Source: a virus | Lineage: Duplodnaviria > Heunggongvirae > Uroviricota > Caudoviricetes | Direction: 5' to 3' (one strand) | DNA length: 10,114 bases | IMG/VR virus record: IMGVR_UViG_2690316097_000011 | The notes under the pieces: model-generated | The model's database searches: none | What the model was told of the DNA's origin: nothing | What the model saw: only the letters and a program-made list of their open reading frames with translations | Shown here: positions 1 through 10,114 of the stretch, one piece after another | Layout: every line of letters starts with the position of its first letter | Numbering within the stretch: position 1 is the stretch's first letter | Made by a program: the position numbers and the translations under genes

Positions 1-54
1 GAGCTGCATGACAAAGTCATCGGGCATTATCTGAACATAAAACACTACCAATAA
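1..54 (+). CDS. insB: IS1 transposase InsB, C-terminal fragment (partial CDS, 5' end outside window)
   Basis: Frame 1 translates to ELHDKVIGHYLNIKHYQ followed by TAA at 52-54, the known C-terminus of IS1 InsB. Confidence 0.8.
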   Translation, partial: ELHDKVIGHYLNIKHYQ

Positions 55-69
55 GTTGGAGTCATTACC
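1..69 (+). mobile_element. IS1 right end (3' terminus with terminal inverted repeat); element continues upstream of the window
   Basis: Positions 1-69 match the canonical IS1 3' end, finishing ...AACATAAAACACTA(C)CAATAAGTTGGAGTCATTACC at 69. One C/T difference from the IS1 sequence as I recall it. Confidence 0.9.
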
Positions 70-201
70 AAACGGTTGAAATGTATGCCGCTACTTACGG
101 GTCCTGTAATCCTCTGAATAAACCAGAGGGAAAAGATGATTTCGACAAAATTTACCGCTTCTTGGAGGACCGCTATATCAAAAGCTTAGAGGACGCAGGG
201 A

Positions 202-1010: not shown

Positions 1011-1301
1011 TTAACTGTTTTTGCCTGGATACTGTCTTCGAGAATGCACAATATTTACTACTTCTATGCTTGATGCTGTTACTCGGTAAAGGATGATGTA
1101 GTTAGGATGAGTTACAATTTCACGAAGACCAAGAACTCGCTCGCTTGGAGGATACAGGTAAGGATGCTCTGTGAGCGGCAAAACGGATGTTTCAATTCGA
1201 ATTTTCATTCTGCGTGCTGCCGCGGGATTTTCTTTAGCTATGTAGGCTACGATCTGGCGCAAATCATCACGAGCAGATGGTAGCCATAAAACGGGTAACA
1301 T
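1011..1301 (-). CDS. parE: ParE/RelE-family type II toxin
   Basis: 96 aa. Translation MLPVLWLPSARDDLRQIVAYIAKENP...IILYRV has the ParE/RelE-like length and motif pattern. Start overlaps the upstream gene stop (TAATG), typical of toxin-antitoxin pairs. Confidence 0.85.
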   Translation of the reverse strand: MLPVLWLPSARDDLRQIVAYIAKENPAAARRMKIRIETSVLPLTEHPYLYPPSERVLGLREIVTHPNYIILYRVTASSIEVVNIVHSRRQYPGKNS

Positions 1302-1495
1302 TATTCACCTCTGTGAGTTGCAGCAGCAATTTGGGCAATAATTTGTTCCATTTCCGCCATTACCTCATCATGCGGAATCGCCGGGCGGGGATCCGCGAGG
1401 CTTGCTGCTACTTTGGCCCGCAGCCATTCGTTGTAACTATTTTCTTGCTCAACTGTCTCAAATTCTGAAACCATTGGGGAAAGGACTGTACTCAT
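1301..1495 (-). CDS. paaA: PaaA-like antitoxin (ParE-associated antitoxin)
   Basis: 64 aa. Motif LSPMVSEFETVEQENSYNEWLRAKVAASLADPRPAIPHDEV resembles, from memory, PaaA2 antitoxins of the prophage-borne paaR2-paaA2-parE2 systems of E. coli O157. Good Shine-Dalgarno (AGGAGA, 8 nt spacer). Immediately upstream of the toxin. Confidence 0.75.
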   Translation of the reverse strand: MSTVLSPMVSEFETVEQENSYNEWLRAKVAASLADPRPAIPHDEVMAEMEQIIAQIAAATHRGE

Positions 1496-1514
1496 TTTAC
1501 ATATCTCCTCTGAT

Positions 1515-2015
1515 TTAGGCGCGACGGCCTTTTTGTGCAGCTAACCACCGCGCAACCGTACGATCCATTGATTCTTTTTTATCTTTCATCTCCTGAAGCA
1601 TGTGTTCTTGATCTTCTTTCGGAAAAGCTCTGAACGTATGGATTAAATCTCGTTCCATCGGCTCTACGGCAAACGGTAGTTCATCCTCTGTTTGTTCTGT
1701 GTCTGCTGGTAATGCGACTATGTTATCTTGCTGTGGTTCTCGACAATACATCCTTGCAATTTGCAGCAAATCTACCATGTCTGGCCTGATTGACTCAGGG
1801 GGAACTTTCAGTAAGCCAGCAAACTTTAGAACAGCCTCAAGGTTTAGTGGGGTTTGACCATTTAGGTAGTGACTTACCGCCCCTTGTGTTGAAAACCCCA
1901 TAATTTCCGCCGCACGTTCCTGAGTCAATCCCAACTGAGATTTCTTTGCCATCCAGATTTCTTTCAGTCTTCTGGCGGCGTTGAGGTCGGTGTCTGACAA
2001 TGATTTTCTTTTCAT
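1515..2015 (-). CDS. lambda-CI-like prophage repressor (HTH, PaaR-like), without an S24 peptidase domain
   Basis: From the ATG at 2015: MKRKSLSDTDLNAARRLKEIWMAKKSQLGLTQERAAEIMGFSTQGAVSHYLNG... aligns by eye with the lambda CI N-terminal DNA-binding domain. The C-terminal 80 aa show no Ser/Lys autocleavage motifs. The ORF can extend to a GTG at 2045. Stop lies 18 nt before the antitoxin start. Confidence 0.85.
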   Translation of the reverse strand: MKRKSLSDTDLNAARRLKEIWMAKKSQLGLTQERAAEIMGFSTQGAVSHYLNGQTPLNLEAVLKFAGLLKVPPESIRPDMVDLLQIARMYCREPQQDNIVALPADTEQTEDELPFAVEPMERDLIHTFRAFPKEDQEHMLQEMKDKKESMDRTVARWLAAQKGRRA

Positions 2016-2027
2016 ACATCCAATTCT

Positions 2028-2090
2028 AATAAGATTGCTAATCACTTTGAAATAGCATCACTATTTACTTTTAAAAATAACAGTGCTATT
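2028..2090. promoter_or_regulatory. OR-like operator region in the divergent repressor/cro-like intergenic space
   Basis: AATAGCATCACTATT at 2051-2065 and AATAACAGTGCTATT at 2076-2090, plus a weaker AATAAGATTGCTAAT at 2028-2042. Centres are 23-25 bp apart, echoing lambda OR1-3. Same half-site as the left operator pair. Confidence 0.55.
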
Positions 2091-2812: not shown

Positions 2813-2883
2813 CTGACAATAGCCATATCGAATCGCTCCCGGCAACTCGTGAGTAAAAAGATTCGGTATCAGAAGAGGTGAGT

Positions 2884-3948
2884 ATGGCTAACGCCTGGCT
2901 CAGATTATGGCATGACATGCCAAATGACCCTAAGTGGCGAACAATTGCCAGGGTGTCAGGGCAGCCAATTGCAACAGTGATGGCAGTGTATATCCACCTC
3001 CTGGTGAGCGCGTCACGAAATGTCACGCGAGGTCACATTGATGTCACGACAGAAGATTTGGCAAGTGCGCTCGACGTGACAGAAGAGGTAATTGATTCAA
3101 TTTTGCAGACGATGCAGGGGCGGGTACTTGATGGTGATTTAATCACTGGATGGGAAAAACGCCAGGTGCTTAAAGAGGACAACGGCAATATTTCGCAAAC
3201 CGCAAAATCTCCTGCAGAGCGCAAGAGGGCGCAGCGAGAGAGGGAAAGAAAGCGGGAACAAAATGGCGATTGTCACGGCGCGTCACGAAATGTCACGCAC
3301 ATGTCACGACGAGTCACGACAGATACAGATAAAGATACAGATAAAGAAGATCAAAACACTATGGTCCATGGCGTAAAAAACGCCACGAACCAGGCAGGGG
3401 ATGTTCAGACCGTCAATCCTGGTCAGCCAGCAGGCTCGACACCGGAAGCCGATTCAGCGTATGCGCTGAAAGCCGATTCGGGCGCTGTGCAGCAGGTGAT
3501 GACCGCAAGGCCGGAGCAATCACTCCAACTGCAGCAGCCTGAAGCCGATTCCGCCATTCAGCGGGAAGCCGATCGGGTAGCCCCGGAAAACACCGGGCAG
3601 CCTGTGGGACGAGTGGATTATCCGGATGTGTTCGAACAGGTCTGGCGGGAATACCCGTTGCGTGCCGGGGCAAACCCGAAGAAATCCGCATTCAGTGCCT
3701 GGAAGGCCAGATTGCGCGAGGGGGTGCCACCAGAGACCATGCTGGATGGTGTGAGGCGTTACGCGAGATACCTGGCGGCGACCGGGAAAGCGGGAACGGA
3801 ATTTGTTCAGCGAGCGACGACGTTTTTTGGGCCGGACCGGAATTTTGAAAACCCCTGGTTGCTCCCGGTAAGCGGCACGAACAACCAGCGTTGTGTGAAT
3901 CATATTTCTGAACCGGATACCGAAATTCCGCCGGGATTCAGGGGGTGA
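2884..3948 (+). CDS. replication initiator / replisome organiser (lambda O-like, YdaU/DUF1376-type N-terminus)
   Basis: 354 aa from the ATG at 2884 (GAGG Shine-Dalgarno 5 nt upstream; GTG at 2878 possible). N-terminus MANAWLRLWHDMPNDPKWR, a low-complexity charged linker, and a C-terminal domain. Sits directly upstream of the DnaC-like gene and contains the iteron arrays. Confidence 0.8.
   Translation: MANAWLRLWHDMPNDPKWRTIARVSGQPIATVMAVYIHLLVSASRNVTRGHIDVTTEDLASALDVTEEVIDSILQTMQGRVLDGDLITGWEKRQVLKEDNGNISQTAKSPAERKRAQRERERKREQNGDCHGASRNVTHMSRRVTTDTDKDTDKEDQNTMVHGVKNATNQAGDVQTVNPGQPAGSTPEADSAYALKADSGAVQQVMTARPEQSLQLQQPEADSAIQREADRVAPENTGQPVGRVDYPDVFEQVWREYPLRAGANPKKSAFSAWKARLREGVPPETMLDGVRRYARYLAATGKAGTEFVQRATTFFGPDRNFENPWLLPVSGTNNQRCVNHISEPDTEIPPGFRG
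3009..3048. repeat. iteron cluster 1 (GTCACG core with 10-11 bp phasing) inside the initiator gene
   Basis: GTCACG at 3012, 3022 and 3043, GTCAC at 3032, and an inverted CGTGAC at 3075. A 20 bp block CGCGTCACGAAATGTCACGC is repeated at 3279-3298. Confidence 0.55.
3271..3346. repeat. iteron cluster 2 plus adjacent GATACAGATAAA tandem repeat; putative phage origin
   Basis: GTCACG at 3272, 3282, 3292, 3303 and 3313 (spacing 10, 10, 11, 10 bp), immediately followed by AGATACAGATAAAGATACAGATAAAG at 3321-3346. Confidence 0.6.
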
Positions 3949-3954
3949 TGTGGC

Positions 3955-4701
3955 ATGAAAAACATTGCGGCAGCCGGGGTTCTTGAACGTATTCACAGAC
4001 TTGCACCACAGGGGGCGGTTCCACCGTACCGGACGGTGGAGGAGTGGCGGGAATGGCAACTTGCTGAAGGACGAAAACGCAGCGAGGAGATTAACCGCCA
4101 GAATCGCCAGTTGCGGGTGGAAAAAATCCTGAATCGTTCGGGCATCCAGCCTCTGCACAGCAAATGCTCGTTTGCGAATTATCAGGTGCAGAACGACGGG
4201 CAAAAATACGCGCTGAGCCAGGCCAAATCCATAGCTGACGAACTGATGACCGGGTGCACGAATTTTGTGTTCAGCGGTAAAACCGGCACCGGGAAAAATC
4301 ACCTTGCAGCGGCGATGGGTAACCGGCTGATGGCGAAGGGGCGCAGCGTGATTATCGTCACCGAGTCTGATGTCATGAGCGTGTTGCATGACAGCTACGA
4401 CAACGGCAAATCCGGTGAAAAATTTTTACAGGAGCTTTGCGGGGTTGATTTGCTGGTCCTGGATGAAATAGGCATTCAGCGGGAGACGAAAAACGAGCAG
4501 GTGGTATTGCACCAGATAATTGATCGCCGGACAGCATCACTGTGCAGTGTCGGGATGTTAACAAACCTGAATCATGCCGCAATGAGCACGCTTCTTGGTG
4601 AGAGGATTATGGACCGCATGACCATGAACGGTTGTCGGTGGGTGACGTTTAACTGGGATAGCTGGCGTTCAAATGTCAGCTTTCCGGGAGTTGTGAAGTA
4701 A
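3955..4701 (+). CDS. DnaC-like helicase loader (IstB-like AAA+ ATPase, lambda P analogue)
   Basis: 248 aa. Walker A GKTGTGKNHLAAAMG and Walker B LLVLDEIG. Shine-Dalgarno AGGGGG upstream. Confidence 0.9.
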   Translation: MKNIAAAGVLERIHRLAPQGAVPPYRTVEEWREWQLAEGRKRSEEINRQNRQLRVEKILNRSGIQPLHSKCSFANYQVQNDGQKYALSQAKSIADELMTGCTNFVFSGKTGTGKNHLAAAMGNRLMAKGRSVIIVTESDVMSVLHDSYDNGKSGEKFLQELCGVDLLVLDEIGIQRETKNEQVVLHQIIDRRTASLCSVGMLTNLNHAAMSTLLGERIMDRMTMNGCRWVTFNWDSWRSNVSFPGVVK

Positions 4702-4722: not shown

Positions 4723-5448
4723 ATGGAAACTGTATTTGACGCACTGAAAGCACTGAAAAGAGCCTCTTCACATGTGGTGGCGTCCCGCCTTGGAATCAGC
4801 CGTGAAGATGCGGTCAACGAACTGTGGAAACTGAAGCGCCGTGGTGAAGCGGATAACAAGGGTTCGATGTGGTGGCTGATTCAGGCTGGTGAAAGTGAAC
4901 CAGTGTCACCGGTACCGAAAGTGACAGCGCAAATGCTGACTGAGGCGATTGAACAACATGGCCCACAAACGGCGGATGAGCTGGCACTGATGTTCGGGAT
5001 TACCTCCCGCCGGGCGAATTCATCGCTGGCCATGGCAATCAGCAAAGGGCGTCTGATTCGCGTGAATCAGGGCGGTAAATTTCGGTACTGCATACCGGGC
5101 GCTGATTTACCGGCAGAGCCGAAAGCCGCATCCATAGCGGAAACGGATGGTAAAGTCTTTCCTCAGCCAGCAGGTGTTGCGTTACCGGTACAGGAAGCTG
5201 CAACACAGGAAGAAATTAAAACAGAAACTGTGGCGGACATTGTGCAGTCGTTGCCATCGTTCACCGAAACGCAAGCGGATGACCTGGTTTTACCATCGCT
5301 GCATATGGCAAACCGCGAACTGCGTCGGGCGAAAAGTCATGTCCAGAAGTGGGAGCGTGTCTGCGCCGCGTTGCGGGAGCTGAACAAGCACCGGGATATT
5401 GTTCGACAGATTGTCGATTCCTCCGGTCGTATTGTGTCGGAAAAGTGA
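4723..5448 (+). CDS. hypothetical phage protein with two winged-helix-like segments
   Basis: 241 aa from the ATG at 4723 (GGAGG Shine-Dalgarno, 8 nt spacer; ORF opens at a TTG at 4705). No catalytic motifs recognised. Confidence 0.7.
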
Positions 5449-5463
5449 TTGCCGGGGGCGCTT

Positions 5464-5705
5464 ATGGCAAAAGTATTTACACAGGAAGAGCGGGAAAAAA
5501 TTAAGGGGCAGGTTGTTGAACTCGTACGCCAGAGTGGGCGCGAGACGTTACGACAACTGGAAGCTAAAACCGGGGCGACAAGATATTTAATAAGCGTTCT
5601 CGCCAGAGAGCTGGTTGCCAGTGGGGATGTATACAACTCTGGCTACGGGTTATTCCCGTCTGAACAGGCTCGTAAGGACTGGCAAAACGCCCGCAAAAAA
5701 CTCTC
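5464..5705 (+). pseudogene. 5' portion of a phage gene interrupted by an IS3-family remnant
   Basis: Starts MAKVFTQEEREKIKGQVVELVRQSGRETLRQLEAKTGATRY... and reads into IS-derived sequence after ...ARKKLS at about 5705. A paralogous 3' portion resumes at 6002. Confidence 0.6.
5497..5705. repeat. about 209 bp imperfect direct repeat, copy 1
   Basis: Aligns by eye with 6002-6210 at roughly 90% identity (the last 110 bp nearly identical). Both copies end ...CGCAAAAAACTCTC. Confidence 0.8.
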
Positions 5706-6001
5706 GAACGGTGGCTGAACTGGAATCTGAAATTCTGCAACTGCGTAAGGCGTTAAATGAAGCTCGCCTTGAGCGAGATATATTAAAAAAAGAACAAATG
5801 GTAGTGTCCGCTATTGCCAGTACACCTCAAAGAGATAATCGGGAAGCGCCTTCACTGATCGAAAGTTGATTTTCAGGAACCGTTCTGACAGCTTCGGCTT
5901 TGAACTCTTTAGAGTAACGTTGGGTTTTTCTGCTCATTATTAGCTCCTTCTGATGCCATTCTATTTCAGGAAGGAGTGTCCGTTAAACTCAGGCTACCTC
6001 A
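5706..6001. mobile_element. scrambled IS3-family (IS600-like) remnant made of two oppositely oriented fragments
   Basis: Minus strand 6001 to 5830: terminal repeat TGAGGTAGCCTGAGTTTAACGGACACTCC, then a Shine-Dalgarno and ATG at 5937 encoding MSRKTQRYSKEFKAEAVRTVPENQLSISEGASRLSL (OrfA N-terminus), then stop. Plus strand 5706-5793 encodes RTVAELESEILQLRKALNEARLERDILKK (OrfA leucine zipper), followed by a second terminal-repeat-like end at 5800-5829. Confidence 0.75.
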
Positions 6002-6210
6002 AAAATTAAAGGGCAGGTTGTTGAACTTGTACGTCTGAGCGGTCGCGAGACGTTGCGGCAACTGGAAGCCAAGACAGGTGCGACAAGATATCTGATGAGT
6101 GTTCTCGCCAGAGAGCTGGTTGCCAGTGGCGATGTATACAACTCTGGTTACGGGTTATTCCCGTCTGAACAGGCGCGTAAGGACTGGCAAAACGCCCGCA
6201 AAAAACTCTC
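6002..6210. repeat. about 209 bp imperfect direct repeat, copy 2
   Basis: Paralogous to 5497-5705. Begins immediately after the IS terminal repeat at 6001. Confidence 0.8.
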
Positions 6211-6391
6211 AAGGGCAAATCTGAAGAAACCATCTGTGGTTGATCCTGACCTTATCTGGTCATTACCAGACGGAGAAATACGCCGCTACGACAGACATCA
6301 GAACATAATCTGTCGCGAGTGCCGGAAGAGTGAAGTTATGCAGCGTGTACCGGCTTTCTATCAGGGTGATTTTCAGGAGGCGGTACTGTGA
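6002..6391 (+). pseudogene. 3' portion of the IS-interrupted phage gene (no 5' end or start codon)
   Basis: In-frame continuation KIKGQVVELVRLSGRETLRQLEAKTGATRY...ICRECRKSEVMQRVPAFYQGDFQEAVL. An upstream in-frame TAA at 5984-5986 lies inside IS sequence. Confidence 0.6.
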
Positions 6392-6448
6392 GTGAAATTA
6401 GCTATCAGGCTTCAATTACCGCTGGCATTCGCATCAAAGGAGAGGAGC

Positions 6449-6805
6449 ATGGAAATAAAACCAGAAGATGAGTTAAGCAATATTGTTTTATTTCCGGTAA
6501 AAGAGGATAACCCTCGTAATCAGGTTAATTTTCTTTATGAGCCATCGGAAAGACCATATTGCCATCACGCTTCTGTCCGGGTTGACGAAAAAGAGCGTCA
6601 GGTCCGCTGTAAAATTTGCGGTGCAGTTGTGGAGCCATTTGACTGGATGCTCTCTGTGGCGAAAAGAGAAACCAGACTGGCAGATGATGTAAGGCTCTTG
6701 CGCCAGGAGGAGCGGGAAAGGCGAAAAAATATAGAAAAGCTAATCCAGATTGAGCGTAATGCGAAAGCGCGGATACGCAGGGTGACAAAATATAGCCCCG
6801 AATAA
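6449..6805 (+). CDS. hypothetical small protein with a putative zinc-ribbon (C-H-H ... C-x2-C)
   Basis: 118 aa from the ATG at 6449, with a strong Shine-Dalgarno AGGAGAGGAG. Cys/His cluster YCHH...CKICG. Charged C-terminal tail. Confidence 0.6.
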   Translation: MEIKPEDELSNIVLFPVKEDNPRNQVNFLYEPSERPYCHHASVRVDEKERQVRCKICGAVVEPFDWMLSVAKRETRLADDVRLLRQEERERRKNIEKLIQIERNAKARIRRVTKYSPE

Positions 6806-7019
6806 TCAAGGTTATTTCTGGAAGTCAAGTCGTGAGTGATGAGGACTAACAAATACGGTGAACTCGATAAAGAGATTCAGGACGAACTGGAGGCCAGGAA
6901 TGATTGACAAATCACCAAGTGAGTTCAGCTACAAAGATTTATTGTCATAACGGGTTATGAGATCGACTTGGTGCGTGATATTCTTCGGGCCAGTTTGCTA
7001 TGCGCCACCATGAGATGTT

Positions 7020-8852
7020 ATGGCCCGCATGTTTGATACATTAGGATTTTACATTATGAATGTGCAACATTTTGATTTTTTTACAGATAATGAGTTTTCT
7101 AATCTGGAAAGATATCAAACTTGTAAAGCCATGGCCAAAGGTTATGCGGGCAATTACAAAACCGGGCAGTCAAGGTTGATGCATGCCCGCTCATACTGCT
7201 TCAGCATCGTAGCTGCATATTGGGATACCCTTGCAAAAAAGCAAAAAAGCAGCATTAAAATGAGGGCAGTACCGCACACTGTTTACATAGAAGACATTCC
7301 ATGTGATGCACGCGAGCTCGCTGAACGAACAGGTGAGCTTATTGCTCAATTTCCGGCGGAGGACGCTGGATATCTGATTGGGTCAATTTATACGGTAATG
7401 CTGCCATCCGCTTACCGTTCGGAATTGGGGGCTTACTATACCCCCCCACCTTTGGTAGCGCGTCTCTTGGACCTGGCTGAAAAGTCTGGTGTTGATTTTT
7501 CTCATGCATCGGTTATTGATCCTGCGTGTGGTGGCGGTGCATTTTTGGCACCAGTAGCCATTCGAATGTTAAAAAAAGACAAGGGGTCTTCCCCTGAATG
7601 GATGTTGAGGAGAATCAGTCGTCGTTTAAAGGGGATAGAAATCGATCCATTTGCGGCTTGGATGAGTTTGGTATTGCTCGAATCTGTACTAATGCCACTA
7701 TGTGTAAAGGTAAAACGTAGATTGCCTGAAGATACAATTATTGTTGCTGATGCGCTTCAGCAAGATAAATTTTCTGGTTATGATCTTGTGGTAGGGAATC
7801 CGCCTTACGGACGTGTCACTCTCGATATTAAAACGAGAGAAAAATATTCTCGTTCGTTATTTGGTCATGCAAATCTATATGGATTGTTCACCGACTTAGC
7901 TGTTCGCATGGTTAAAGAGAAAACAGGAGTTATTGCATTTCTTACGCCAACTTCTTTTCTTGGTGGGCAGTATTTCACCGCGCTGCGAACCCTTTTGACC
8001 GAAAAAACTACTCCGTATGCCCTTGATTTCGTCACTGACAGGGATGGGGTCTTTGACGATGTTCTCCAGGAAACAATGTTGACAGCATTCAAGGCGGGAG
8101 AACATAAAGTTCGGGCCCAGGTATCCTCACTTGTCCCTAAGGGGTTGAACAAAGCAAAAATTGAGAAAATAGGTAATGTTGATATAGAAAAAGGTGGAGC
8201 AACGTGGCTTTTGCCACGCGTTAAAGATGATGCCTGTTTTCTTAATGTATTAAAACAGATGTCTACGCGTTTAGCTGATCTGGGATACTCAGTCTCTACA
8301 GGTCAGTTAGTCTGGAATCGATTTAAGTCGCAGTTGCGTACGACGAAAGGAAAAAATAGCTACCCATTAGTCTGGGCGGAATCAATAACTTCAGCTGGTT
8401 TTCGTTTTAGTGCAGACAGAAAAAATCATGTTCCCTATATCGATATAACCCCACAACAGGGTTTCCTTGTGACAAAATCTGAATGTGTGCTTGTTCAGCG
8501 GACAACATCGAAGGAACAGGACAGAAGGATTTTAGCGGCAATTTTACCTCAGGGATTTATAGATGAAACTGGTGGCGTAGTAGTTGAAAACCATATTAAT
8601 ATTGTATATTCAAACGGATTGTTCTCTGCGGTTCGCCCTGATGTTATTGATATGCTACTTAATTCGCATGTTGTCGATCGGGCGTTCAGGTGTATAAGCG
8701 GAAGTGTTGCTGTTTCGGCCTATGAATTGAATTCAATCCCGTTGCCTTCTCTGGAGCAGGTGATGGAGATTCAATCGTTAATTGATGCTGGCGTCCACAG
8801 ACGGATTATTGAGAGAACTATCGCTGGTTTCTATGGAGTGATGATTGCATGA
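7020..8852 (+). CDS. gamma-class N6-adenine DNA methyltransferase (Eco57I/PstI-like family)
   Basis: 610 aa. Motif X (GAYYTPPPLV), motif I (VIDPACGGGAFL) and motif IV (VVGNPPYGR) occur in the gamma-class order, with a roughly 300 aa C-terminal region as a probable target-recognition domain. Alternative ATGs at 7029 and 7056. About 27% GC at the 5' end. Confidence 0.9.
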   Translation: MARMFDTLGFYIMNVQHFDFFTDNEFSNLERYQTCKAMAKGYAGNYKTGQSRLMHARSYCFSIVAAYWDTLAKKQKSSIKMRAVPHTVYIEDIPCDARELAERTGELIAQFPAEDAGYLIGSIYTVMLPSAYRSELGAYYTPPPLVARLLDLAEKSGVDFSHASVIDPACGGGAFLAPVAIRMLKKDKGSSPEWMLRRISRRLKGIEIDPFAAWMSLVLLESVLMPLCVKVKRRLPEDTIIVADALQQDKFSGYDLVVGNPPYGRVTLDIKTREKYSRSLFGHANLYGLFTDLAVRMVKEKTGVIAFLTPTSFLGGQYFTALRTLLTEKTTPYALDFVTDRDGVFDDVLQETMLTAFKAGEHKVRAQVSSLVPKGLNKAKIEKIGNVDIEKGGATWLLPRVKDDACFLNVLKQMSTRLADLGYSVSTGQLVWNRFKSQLRTTKGKNSYPLVWAESITSAGFRFSADRKNHVPYIDITPQQGFLVTKSECVLVQRTTSKEQDRRILAAILPQGFIDETGGVVVENHINIVYSNGLFSAVRPDVIDMLLNSHVVDRAFRCISGSVAVSAYELNSIPLPSLEQVMEIQSLIDAGVHRRIIERTIAGFYGVMIA

Positions 8853-9931
8853 ATCTGCCTGTTGTTCCCCCATTGAATGTTATCCGGGAAAGATTACAAT
8901 TAATTTTCCCTGAAGGGACTGAGAATCGTGGATATTTAATTCGGGAAATAGCTGCAAAAACAATTTTTGTCATGTTTTATGCTGGTGCGGTTGAGGGGCT
9001 GGGGCGATGGATAAGGCCCAGCCAGGTTGTAAGTATGGGAGATTCGCAGGCTGCTCTTACTGATGATGCGTCCAGAGAAAGCTGGGTAAAGATGACTTTC
9101 TCTAAACAAAAGATAAGGCCTGCTGATGCATGGTATGCGGAAAATACGCGTGAGCCAATACGTGATGAAACTATAAAAAATGGCCTAATACCTTGCAATG
9201 CAATTGTTGAGCGTAAAGGTATACCCACCACATCCTCTCGTCCTCGTTACAGTTTGAATCGCTCTTTTGCAGCACTCTTTGATGCCGGGCTTGAAGGAGA
9301 TTCGCTGCTGAGTGCAATAAGTTCCTGGCAAGAAAATCATTTGAACAAAGCCGCTCTTGCTAGGTTGCGTTTATTGAAATCAGGGGCAGTGATTGCTGCT
9401 GATGCCGTAGTCGTCACTTTCCCAAATGGAGAGAAGAGAACTTTAGCTCCGGGCCCGTCAAGTACAATAGCTAAGGCCGTCATCGAAGTTTTTGCTCCTA
9501 ATTTTCTTAAGAATCCAACTGTGCTCTGGTTGTCTGAATCCGGGAATAAAGTTGTTGCTCAGGATGATGTATTGGCAAAAGCATTGGGGCTGAATATTGA
9601 TGCCTCAAAAGCACTTCCAGATATTATTTTGATTGATTTGGGAGAGGACCGAACGGGTTCGGACATGCTTGTAGTTTTCACTGAAGTAGTTGCGACAGAT
9701 GGGCCTATAAACAGGGAACGAAAAGTTACTCTCACTCATTTGGCTATTGACGCTGGGTTCAGCGAGAAAAATCTTGCATTCCTTACGGCATTTATGGACA
9801 GAAGTGCTCTGCCTTTTAAAAAGGCAATACCAGAATTGGCGTGGGGATCTTATGCATGGTTTGCTTCTGAACCGGAGCACTTAATTGATCTTCGGGATGG
9901 TTATCCGGTAAAGATCAGCCAGAGAAAATGA
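8849..9931 (+). CDS. putative restriction endonuclease partner (possibly BsuBI/PstI family); function unverified
   Basis: 360 aa, translationally coupled to the methyltransferase (ATGA overlap at 8849-8852). Size and two-domain layout fit BsuBI/PstI-type endonucleases. A candidate nuclease core PDIILIDLGED...LVVFTEVVATDGPINRERK is only weakly PD-(D/E)xK-like. Confidence 0.55.
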   Translation: MNLPVVPPLNVIRERLQLIFPEGTENRGYLIREIAAKTIFVMFYAGAVEGLGRWIRPSQVVSMGDSQAALTDDASRESWVKMTFSKQKIRPADAWYAENTREPIRDETIKNGLIPCNAIVERKGIPTTSSRPRYSLNRSFAALFDAGLEGDSLLSAISSWQENHLNKAALARLRLLKSGAVIAADAVVVTFPNGEKRTLAPGPSSTIAKAVIEVFAPNFLKNPTVLWLSESGNKVVAQDDVLAKALGLNIDASKALPDIILIDLGEDRTGSDMLVVFTEVVATDGPINRERKVTLTHLAIDAGFSEKNLAFLTAFMDRSALPFKKAIPELAWGSYAWFASEPEHLIDLRDGYPVKISQRK

Positions 9932-10083
9932 CCAAAGTTTGATATCCGCCACGCCCTGAAGGATGGGGGTTTTACGGTGCACTGGATAAAAAATCGGTTT
10001 CATAGATTTGCCCACCGTGGTATACGCCTGCGATAAAAACTTTATTGTCATCAACGGCAAAAGCAATAATTGTTCTGTGGCGG

Positions 10084-10114
10084 GGTGATGCTGCCAACTT
10101 ACTGATTTAGTGTA
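10084..10114 (+). mobile_element. IS1 left end (terminal inverted repeat), same orientation as the IS1 at 1-69; continues beyond the window
   Basis: GGTGATGCTGCCAACTTACTGATTTAGTGTA is the canonical IS1 5' terminus. Confidence 0.9.

What the first reader, a model, noticed from the sequence alone, without database searches (positions are those of the whole stretch)
5464..6391. Phage gene split by a scrambled IS600-like remnant flanked by 209 bp imperfect direct repeats
The gene's 5' part (5464-5705) and 3' part (6002-6391) overlap by a 209 bp segment present twice at about 90% identity. Between them lie two IS3-family fragments in opposite orientations, each with a TGAGGT...GGACACT terminal-repeat-like end. 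A simple IS insertion would give a 3-4 bp target duplication, not a divergent 209 bp one. This looks like a recombination scar joining two related prophage alleles. The 84 aa ORF at 5615-5869 is a chimeric artefact of this junction.
Basis: seen in the sequence. Interest (0 to 1): 0.55.

Follow-up and report, generated by a model that had tools for sequence, protein, structure and literature searches.

The report
Scaffold artefact around an IS600 insertion
The [quoted passage not shown] is most likely an artefact of a short-read Shigella sonnei draft assembly, in which two versions of one prophage gene were stitched in series across an unsequenced join; the only biology behind it is an ordinary IS600 insertion and ordinary prophage allele mosaicism.

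Summary
There is a 210-nt direct repeat at 91% identity (5496-5705 and 6001-6210). Two IS600 pieces lie in opposite orientation between the copies. The interrupted gene is a 140-aa DUF977 prophage gene.

The window is a whole 10,114-bp contig of a draft S. sonnei assembly (CXBK01000148.1). In the public record, base 5707 is an N. That base is the exact join between the gene's 5' part and the IS600 debris, so the left junction was never sequenced.

The apparent internal IS600 deletion is a join over exactly 10 shared bases, which is GapFiller's default minimum overlap for closing a gap. The IS600-in-IS600 junction also occurs in six other draft contigs, next to a different flank.

A sister assembly (CXDC01000145.1) has an identical right half. 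Its left half is arranged quite differently, again with Ns at the join and again with one exactly 10-nt join.

Copy 1 is the normal S. sonnei allele. Copy 2 carries a 267-bp tract identical to an E. coli ATCC 25922-type allele. This mosaic allele also exists uninterrupted in other S. sonnei (WP_065552319.1).

Verdict: two versions of the region were placed in series by scaffolding. The real content is an IS600 end abutting nucleotide 34 of a mosaic allele. Interest is low.

The parts
5464..5706 (+). DUF977 gene nt 1-243, normal S. sonnei ('N-type') allele. It ends at the scaffold join.
   Evidence: Window 1-5707 matches S. sonnei Ss046 (L009 2047-7753) with 2 mismatches, none in this part. Pfam PF06163 E=1.1e-14.
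5707..5707 (.). Base that is 'N' in the public record CXBK01000148.1. This is the unsequenced join between two assembled pieces.
   Evidence: L015 is the reverse complement of the window except for this one base. The 84-aa product translated with A at this base is not on record.
5708..5792 (+). IS600 nt 239-323 (internal orfA segment, no terminus).
5783..5792 (+). TTAAAAAAAG: the exactly 10-nt overlap joining IS600 nt 323 to nt 1218, which looks like an 894-bp internal deletion.
   Evidence: Not found as a single contiguous piece in 5,426 complete E. coli genomes or in PLSDB plasmids. It equals GapFiller's default minimum closing overlap (PMC3446322).
5783..5829 (+). IS600 nt 1218-1264, including the right terminal inverted repeat.
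   Evidence: 47/47 identical.
5830..6001 (-). IS600 nt 172-1, including the left terminal inverted repeat and orfA codons 1-36. Its inner end abuts the right terminus of the other piece (IS600-in-IS600 junction).
   Evidence: 171/172 identical. HTH_Tnp_1 E=5.4e-8. The same 220-bp junction (5783-6002) is in L013, L014, L018, L019, L021 and L022, next to a different left-end flank.
6002..6268 (+). DUF977 nt 34-300, 'Y-type' allele tract. It covers copy 2 of the repeat plus 58 further bp.
   Evidence: All 23 differences from the S. sonnei allele lie at 6010-6268. The tract is 100% identical to the DUF977 allele of E. coli ATCC 25922 and many other genomes.
6269..6294 (+). 26-nt stretch identical in both alleles, within which the sequence switches from Y-type to N-type.
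   Evidence: Last Y-specific base is 6268 and first N-specific base is 6295. There are 23 Y-specific then 14 N-specific sites, with none matching neither allele.
6295..6391 (+). DUF977 3' end, N-type allele, running on into the resident prophage remnant.
   Evidence: 6269-10114 is identical to Ss046.
5615..5869 (+). 84-aa ORF spanning gene, join and IS600 pieces. It is a chimeric non-gene.
   Evidence: No Pfam family. It spans the N at 5707 and the 10-nt join.

Best explanation
The window is a scaffold, not a continuously sequenced molecule. The read set of this S. sonnei isolate held two versions of the DUF977 region.
- Version 1 is the ordinary N-type allele with its upstream flank.
- Version 2 is a mosaic allele (Y-type for nt 34-300, N-type afterwards) whose nucleotide 34 abuts the left end of an IS600, followed by the downstream flank.

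The assembler left these as two pieces. Read pairs linked both pieces to the same neighbours, so the scaffolder set them one after the other with a single N (5707). The result looks like a 210-bp imperfect tandem-like duplication.

The IS600 debris to the left of nt 172 was produced by greedy extension into a multicopy repeat. The path took the branch of an IS600-in-IS600 junction that belongs to another locus. It was then closed on a chance 10-nt overlap (TTAAAAAAAG), which mimics an internal deletion.

Shown directly: the N, the 10-nt overlaps, the conflicting sister scaffold, the allele assignments, and the rarity of the structure.

Inferred: the software steps (Velvet/SSPACE/GapFiller-type pipeline), and that the real underlying event is a plain IS600 insertion between nt 33 and 34 of a mosaic DUF977 allele.

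Not resolved: where the N-type version sits. It could be a second genomic copy or reads from mixed DNA.
For: 1. The window equals the whole contig CXBK01000148.1 of draft assembly GCA_001257435.1, except that record base 5707, the exact gene/IS600 boundary, is N. Both contig ends are IS1 ends, as expected for a repeat-bounded short-read contig.

2. Sister assembly CXDC01000145.1 (L023) is 100% identical to window 5830-10085. To the left it has a complete IS600, then 'NN', then 7 nt of an ATCC 25922-type phage gene. That gene fragment is joined through exactly 10 shared nt (ACCGAAAAAA) to the methylase gene of an otherwise intact copy of the locus. So there are two drawings of one region, both with Ns at the left join.

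3. Each scaffold has one join with exactly 10 nt of overlap. GapFiller closes a gap when the two extensions overlap by 'at least 10 nucleotides' by default (PMC3446322). The Sanger Velvet+SSPACE+GapFiller pipeline paper states that these greedy tools can make false joins and that joins are written as N (PMC5320598).

4. The 220-bp IS600-in-IS600 junction occurs in six other draft contigs with a different flank.

5. The mosaic product that starts after the IS600 end (WP_052975316.1) is on only 2-3 contigs of the whole collection. The flanking DnaC-like protein of this locus is listed in 5,390 blocks of the collection, 94 of them with contigs over 1 Mb. Seven chromosome-scale S. sonnei loci inspected (L003-L006 and L008-L010) have the intact 140-aa gene, and an eighth (L007) has the gene deleted.

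6. None of 5,426 complete E. coli genomes has the structure.

7. The uninterrupted mosaic allele exists in S. sonnei (WP_065552319.1, contigs up to 9.7 kb). The Y/N switch therefore needs no IS600-linked event.

8. Argument from assembly logic (inference): a real junction between unique gene sequence and an 85-nt IS600 piece would be covered by reads and assembled without an N.
Against: - I could not see reads, coverage or the assembly method for this record. Attributing it to SSPACE/GapFiller rests on the N pattern and the 10-nt overlaps.
- A product carrying the same nt 323/1228 IS600 join exists in one other S. sonnei draft (SIY78287.1). That join could therefore be a real mini-IS600 rather than a false closure.
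- 10-nt microhomologies also occur at genuine illegitimate recombination joints.
- The model does not fully explain why L023 holds 1.74 kb of identical sequence twice.
- It does not explain why the first piece in the window stops at gene nt 243.
- The origin of the N-type version in an isolate whose resident allele seems to be mosaic is unexplained.
Confidence: 0.8

Rival explanations
1. The structure is real exactly as drawn. A DNA fragment from a second, Y-type prophage, carrying nested and deleted IS600 debris next to its DUF977 gene, was patched into the resident gene. One crossover was homologous (6269-6294) and one was an illegitimate join (5707/5708), as in homology-facilitated illegitimate recombination. 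This duplicated 210 bp of the gene.
For: - Both flanks are the same resident remnant, and only 6002-6268 is foreign. That is the footprint expected of a one-sided homologous patch.
- The Y/N switch is clean.
- Shigella is rich in IS600 and in prophage remnants (PMC7373316).
Against: - The illegitimate join is an N in the record.
- The sister isolate with an identical right half has a different left half.
- The nested IS600 junction is seen elsewhere with another flank.
- The uninterrupted mosaic allele exists without any IS600.
- No complete genome shows the structure.
Confidence: 0.05
2. The isolate really carries two copies of part of the locus, arranged as in the sister scaffold L023. Either it is a tandem duplication of DUF977 nt 34 to methylase nt 1008 with an IS600 at the joint, or it is an IS600-flanked second copy elsewhere, for example inside an ATCC 25922-like prophage. 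The window is then a collapsed and mis-joined rendering of that duplication.
For: - L023 contains the 1.74-kb stretch from the DUF977 3' end to methylase nt 1008 twice, identically.
- L023 has 17 nt of an ATCC 25922-type phage gene next to the IS600 right end, which suggests a second prophage is involved.
- Both N-type and Y-type versions of nt 34-243 are present in both assemblies.
Against: - The left join in L023 is also Ns plus a 10-nt overlap.
- No complete S. sonnei genome inspected shows any duplication here.
- The product is on only 2-3 contigs.
- Under this model too, the 505-bp spacing in the window is still not real.
Confidence: 0.35
3. The two versions come from two genomes. The isolate itself has a plain IS600 insertion in the mosaic allele. 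The N-type version comes from reads of an ordinary S. sonnei, through mixed culture or cross-sample carry-over in a multiplexed run.
For: - The N-type piece is indistinguishable from ordinary S. sonnei.
- The mosaic allele appears to occupy the resident locus in other isolates, since its contig of about 9.7 kb is the size of the IS1-bounded locus. One genome should therefore not hold both versions.
- The improvement step of the Sanger pipeline works only on reads that do not map as proper pairs (PMC5320598).
Against: - Two separate assemblies would both have to be affected.
- The N-type path was assembled over long distances in L023, which argues against trace contamination.
- No read data are available.
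Confidence: 0.25

Closest known systems
False duplication from serial placement of alternative versions in scaffolded short-read assemblies
   Same: Two slightly different versions of one region sit in tandem, separated by a gap character, with a shared flank on each side. Ko et al. 2022 (PMC9516828) describe duplication errors of this kind in vertebrate assemblies. Page et al. 2016 (PMC5320598) warn of false joins by SSPACE and GapFiller.
   Different: The case here is bacterial. The two versions are not diploid haplotypes but two alleles or copies, or mixed DNA. An IS600 repeat adds wrongly threaded sequence.
Ordinary IS600 (IS3 family) insertion into a Shigella prophage gene
   Same: The left terminal repeat of IS600 abuts gene nt 34 in two assemblies, with no N and no more than 1 nt of overlap. 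[quoted passage not shown]
   Different: The other end of the element and its 3-bp target duplication are not seen in either assembly, so even the simple insertion is inferred.
Mosaic alleles of lambdoid (Rac/Qin-like) prophage genes made by homologous exchange
   Same: A 267-293-bp tract identical to an E. coli ATCC 25922/ST131-type allele sits inside an otherwise S. sonnei-type DUF977 gene. The same mosaic exists uninterrupted.
   Different: Nothing unusual. This is the common pattern for this gene family, which has hundreds of alleles at 88-94% identity.
Homology-facilitated illegitimate recombination (de Vries and Wackernagel 2002; recalled from memory, not checked here)
   Same: On paper the window has one homologous and one non-homologous junction flanking foreign DNA.
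   Different: The non-homologous junction is an unsequenced N.

Membership tests
IS600 / IS3 family insertion sequence | Near-identity to IS600 DNA and terminal inverted repeats starting TG... | tested here: met
   99-100% identity over nt 239-323, 1218-1264 and 1-172. Both termini (TGAGGTAGCC..., TGAGGTGTAC...) are present, but on two separate fragments in opposite orientation.
IS600 / IS3 family insertion sequence | orfA with an HTH domain and orfB with a DDE transposase, joined by a frameshift | tested here: not met
   Only orfA codons 1-36 (HTH_Tnp_1, E=5.4e-8) and an orfA-internal piece are present. No orfB sequence is present: nt 324-1217 are absent.
IS600 / IS3 family insertion sequence | One contiguous element flanked by a 3-bp target-site duplication | tested here: not met
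   The left boundary is IS600 nt 239 next to an N. The flanks are a 210-bp, 91%-identical repeat rather than a 3-bp duplication.
DUF977 (PF06163) prophage protein | Match to the Pfam profile above the gathering score | tested here: met
   The 5' part scores 55 bits and the 3' part 84 bits, against a cut-off of 22.1. Intact 140-aa homologues lie between the DUF1627 gene and a 118-aa gene in S. sonnei and E. coli.
Scaffold or gap-closure artefact | Gap character at the novel junction in the source record | tested here: met
   N at 5707 in CXBK01000148.1. NN at the corresponding join in CXDC01000145.1.
Scaffold or gap-closure artefact | The arrangement is not reproducible between assemblies, or in finished genomes, of the same lineage | tested here: met
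   L015 and L023 differ to the left of the IS600 left end. The gene is intact in seven chromosome-scale genomes inspected (L003-L006, L008-L010). The mosaic truncated product is on only 2-3 contigs.
Scaffold or gap-closure artefact | Joins at the software's minimum overlap | tested here: met
   Exactly 10 nt at window 5783-5792 and at L023 7461-7470. GapFiller's default is n=10.
Scaffold or gap-closure artefact | Assembly made with a scaffolder and gap-filler; reads do not span the junction | not testable with these tools
   No access to the assembly metadata or to reads.
Homology-facilitated illegitimate recombination product | A sequenced illegitimate junction (microhomology) paired with a homologous crossover | tested here: inconclusive
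   A homologous switch interval at 6269-6294 is present. The illegitimate junction is an N.

The most novel reading that the evidence does not exclude
The contig is right as drawn. A fragment of a second prophage carrying nested, internally deleted IS600 debris was patched into the resident DUF977 gene by one homologous crossover and one illegitimate join. That would be a natural example of homology-facilitated illegitimate recombination between prophages in Shigella, creating a 210-bp divergent duplication.
Probability: 0.05. Interest if true: 0.35.

Novelty: not a real feature. Interest (0 to 1): 0.07.

Why it matters
As biology it matters little. IS600 insertions and mosaic prophage alleles are routine in Shigella, and DUF977 has no known function.

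The practical lesson concerns genome scans. A window taken from a scaffolded short-read draft can hide a gap character, shown here as an ordinary base. Greedy gap closure at multicopy IS elements can then create convincing-looking scrambled remnants and divergent duplications. Junction-level claims from such contigs need read or long-read support.

Tried and rejected
- Searched 5,426 complete E. coli genomes, INPHARED phages and PLSDB plasmids for the whole structure, for the IS600 debris, for the IS600/allele junction and for the deletion join. No contiguous match was found. The thirteen '≥80%' records for the 122-bp query are two separate pieces 278-621 bp apart.
- Scanned IMG/VR and the GTDB species-representative genomes for the 32-nt junction of the IS600 left end with the gene. 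There were no hits.
- Looked up the window's truncated and chimeric ORFs. The 84-aa, 98-aa and 112-aa products are not on record. This is what led to finding the N.
- A homologue search with the copy-2 protein gave 680 DUF977 proteins at no more than 94% identity and no donor locus. It was not useful.
- Tried to fetch the contigs that carry the uninterrupted mosaic allele (WP_065552319.1), the 111-aa orfA variant (SIY78287.1), a second S. sonnei DUF977 paralogue (P0122) and ATCC 25922-type truncated products.
- Considered that copy 2 is a diverged in-situ duplicate. Rejected, because it is 100% identical to an existing foreign allele.
- Considered that the window joins two different prophages. 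Rejected, because both flanks are the same resident remnant.
- Considered that the single IS600 base difference (nt 126) marks a specific donor copy. Rejected, because the same variant is in IS600 copies at several loci.

Full report
**1. What is in the window.**
The region contains a 210-nt direct repeat, 5496-5705 and 6001-6210. It is 191/210 identical, with a spacing of 505 nt (differences listed).

I took a 1264-bp IS600 copy from E. coli 97-3250. BLAST against it resolves the DNA between the repeat copies into three segments:
- 5708-5792 is IS600 nt 239-323 on the + strand.
- 5783-5829 is IS600 nt 1218-1264 on the + strand, ending in the right terminal repeat.
- 5830-6001 is IS600 nt 172-1 on the - strand, 171/172 identical, ending in the left terminal repeat and encoding the first 36 codons of orfA.

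The first two segments share exactly 10 nt, TTAAAAAAAG. Together they therefore look like an IS600 with an 894-bp internal deletion. The right terminus of that element abuts nt 172 of the inverted element, which looks like an IS600 inserted into another IS600.

The interrupted gene is a DUF977 (PF06163) gene. The 5' part matches profile positions 1-81 and the 3' part matches 13-134. The 84-aa ORF at 5615-5869 has no family match and is chimeric.

**2. Where the window comes from.**
The surrounding genes form a Rac/Qin-like prophage remnant. In order they are:
- a ParE/PaaA2 toxin-antitoxin pair with an HTH regulator;
- a YdaT-like gene;
- a DnaC-like gene;
- a DUF1627 gene;
- the DUF977 gene;
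- a 118/137-aa gene;
- an N6-methylase and a BsuBI/PstI-type endonuclease.

No complete E. coli genome (0 of 5,426) contains the structure. The best E. coli loci are uninterrupted, exactly 505 bp shorter and only about 94% identical.

An exact-protein look-up of the DnaC-like protein led to Shigella sonnei chromosomes, including Ss046 (CP000038.1). There the locus lies between the ynfF/G and ydfI regions, is bounded by IS1, and has an intact 140-aa DUF977 gene.

Window 1-5707 matches Ss046 with 2 mismatches. Window 6001-10114 matches with 23 mismatches, all within 6010-6268. From 6269 to 10114 the match is perfect.

**3. Two alleles.**
Copy 1 of the repeat is the ordinary S. sonnei allele ("N-type").

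The tract 6002-6268, which is copy 2 plus 58 further bp, is 100% identical to the DUF977 allele of E. coli ATCC 25922, ST131 and many other strains ("Y-type"). After a 26-nt stretch common to both alleles (6269-6294), the sequence is N-type again. There are 23 Y-specific sites followed by 14 N-specific sites, and none matching neither allele.

Both outer flanks, however, belong to one and the same resident remnant, so this is not a joint between two prophages.

**4. The decisive finding.**
I looked up the 36-aa orfA stump encoded at 5829-5936 on the - strand. It returned a 10,114-bp contig, CXBK01000148.1 of draft assembly GCA_001257435.1. This contig is the reverse complement of the window at every base except one.

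Window base 5707 is "N" in the record. Read directly from the record, the sequence is ...aaaaaactctcgNacggtggctg.... That base is the exact boundary between the N-type gene part and IS600 nt 239. This also explains why the 84-aa product translated with an A at that base is not on record.

Both contig ends are IS1 ends, which is the signature of a repeat-bounded short-read contig. The junction that creates the 210-bp duplication was therefore never sequenced. It is a scaffold join.

**5. A second drawing of the same region.**
The mosaic product that starts just after the IS600 end is WP_052975316.1, DUF977 family protein [Shigella sonnei]. It occurs on only 2-3 contigs in the whole collection. 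The other contig is CXDC01000145.1 (L023, 12,827 bp).

L023 is 100% identical to window 5830-10085. To the left, though, it differs. Reading leftward, it shows:
- a complete IS600;
- then "NN";
- then ATTGGCT;
- then, through the 10 shared bases ACCGAAAAAA, nt 1008 of the methylase gene of an otherwise complete N-type copy of the locus.

The 17-mer ACCGAAAAAAATTGGCT matches a gene about 650 bp downstream of the Y-type DUF977 gene in the ATCC 25922 prophage.

Two related assemblies thus agree on everything to the right of the IS600 left end and disagree on everything to its left. Both have Ns at the left join.

**6. The signature of gap closing.**
Each scaffold has one novel join with exactly 10 nt of overlap: window 5783-5792 and L023 7461-7470. 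GapFiller regards a gap as closed when the two extensions overlap by "at least 10 nucleotides" (default n) and the insertion fits the estimated gap size (PMC3446322).

The Sanger high-throughput pipeline runs Velvet, SSPACE and 120 iterations of GapFiller. It writes joins as N, uses only reads that do not map as proper pairs for the improvement step, and warns that these greedy tools "can lead to false joins" (PMC5320598). I could not verify that this record was made with that pipeline, so that link is an inference.

Further points:
- The 220-bp IS600-in-IS600 junction (5783-6002) occurs in six other draft contigs, where the left end of the inverted IS600 abuts a quite different flank. Its presence next to the DUF977 gene is best explained as a wrong branch taken inside a multicopy repeat.
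- The nt 323/1228 join was not found as a contiguous piece in E. coli genomes or in plasmids.
- An orfA product carrying that join exists in one other S. sonnei draft (SIY78287.1). This fits either a recurrent false closure at the same 10-mer or a real mini-IS600. I could not fetch that contig.

**7. What is probably real.**
The junction of the IS600 left terminus with gene nt 34 has no N and at most 1 nt of overlap, and it is identical in both assemblies. I take it as a genuine IS600 end.

The Y/N mosaic allele is also real. The full-length, uninterrupted mosaic protein is on record as WP_065552319.1 [Shigella sonnei], on contigs up to 9,739 bp. That is the size expected for the IS1-bounded locus; compare L011 at 9,608 bp. 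The ordinary N-type protein is on at least 1,000 contigs.

The simplest underlying biology is therefore an ordinary IS600 insertion between nt 33 and 34 of a mosaic DUF977 allele. This occurs in a species where IS600 is one of five expanded IS and where recent IS activity is the highest among the Shigella species compared (PMC7373316).

**8. How the apparent duplication arose (inferred).**
Both the N-type version (nt 34-243 here, the whole gene in L023) and the Y-type version of the same stretch were present in the reads. They diverge after gene nt 33 and merge again after nt 300.

An assembler that attaches the downstream flank to one branch leaves the other branch as a dead end on the upstream flank. 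Read pairs then link the two pieces, the estimated gap is negative, no overlap is found, and a single N is inserted. The two versions end up in series. This resembles the false duplications described for heterozygous regions (PMC9516828).

A real junction between unique gene sequence and an 85-nt IS600 piece would be spanned by reads and assembled without an N.

**9. What stays open.**
I cannot say why the read set holds both versions. Three possibilities remain:
- a real second copy, either an L023-like duplication or an IS600-flanked copy in an ATCC 25922-like prophage;
- a mixed or cross-contaminated sample;
- the structure exactly as drawn, which I consider least likely.

Two observations are not fully explained by my model. 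L023 holds 1.74 kb of identical sequence twice, and the first piece in the window stops at gene nt 243. In every scenario except "as drawn", the 505-bp-spaced imperfect repeat and the scrambled remnant are products of assembly.

**10. Verdict.**
IS600, the involvement of two alleles and the 140-aa gene are right. A contiguous recombination scar is not established and is probably artefactual.
- Novelty: not a real feature.
- Confidence in the artefact reading is 0.8.
- Interest is 0.07.
- The most novel reading not excluded is a genuine homology-facilitated illegitimate recombination patch. I give it a probability of about 0.05 and an interest of about 0.35 if true.

Noticed in passing
window 5707 (L015 position 4408): The window shows A where the public record has N. 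The window therefore hides a scaffold gap character, which affects any junction-level reading of this contig.
   Followed up: yes
window 1011-2045 (- strand): Three-gene module: HTH regulator (1515-2045), PaaA2-family antitoxin (1301-1495) and ParE toxin (1011-1301). From memory, it resembles the paaR2-paaA2-parE2 prophage toxin-antitoxin system of E. coli O157.
   Followed up: partly
window 7020-9931 (+ strand): Type II restriction-modification pair carried by the prophage remnant: a 610-aa N6-adenine methylase (N6_Mtase/Eco57I domains) overlapping a 360-aa BsuBI/PstI-family endonuclease. The endonuclease is on at least 1,000 contigs and is named in S. sonnei, E. coli and Klebsiella.
   Followed up: partly
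window 1-75 and 10084-10114: Both contig ends are IS1 ends (right-end sequence ...AATAAGTTGGAGTCATTACC and left-end sequence GGTGATGCTGCCAACTTACTG...). In complete genomes the roughly 9.5-kb remnant is flanked by IS1 copies, which makes it a potential IS1-bounded unit.
   Followed up: partly
L023 7461-7479: In the sister assembly, the methylase gene at nt 1008 is joined through exactly 10 shared nt (ACCGAAAAAA) to 7 nt of an ATCC 25922-type phage gene, followed by NN and the IS600 right end. This hints that these isolates carry an ATCC 25922-like prophage with its own IS600 insertion.
   Followed up: partly
protein WP_065552319.1 (P0152), S. sonnei contigs up to 9,739 bp: An uninterrupted 140-aa DUF977 with the same Y-type N-terminal part and N-type C-terminus exists in other S. 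sonnei assemblies. This suggests a gene-conversion patch in the resident remnant of a sublineage. The DNA could not be fetched.
   Followed up: partly
protein SIY78287.1 (P0168), S. sonnei contig of 10,965 bp: A 111-aa orfA variant that carries the same IS600 nt 323/1228 join, and reads on into IS600 nt 172 of an inverted copy, is on record once. It is either a real nested mini-IS600 or the same false closure recurring.
   Followed up: no
L007 (VFAD01000001.1), equivalent to window 5089-7440: One near-complete S. sonnei chromosome has a 2.35-kb deletion running from inside the DUF1627 gene to methylase nt 421. It removes DUF977 and truncates the methylase while keeping the endonuclease gene.
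   Followed up: no
L012 2969-3391 (E. coli ATCC 25922): The Y-type DUF977 gene of ATCC 25922 has an internal stop (codon 111) and is annotated as a pseudogene. The 110-aa product is on 541 contigs.
   Followed up: no
window 3520-4389 (- strand): A 289-aa ORF lies antisense to the replication genes (the 356-aa ORF at 2878-3948 and the DnaC-like gene). It is not called as a gene in any of the related loci and is probably spurious.
   Followed up: no
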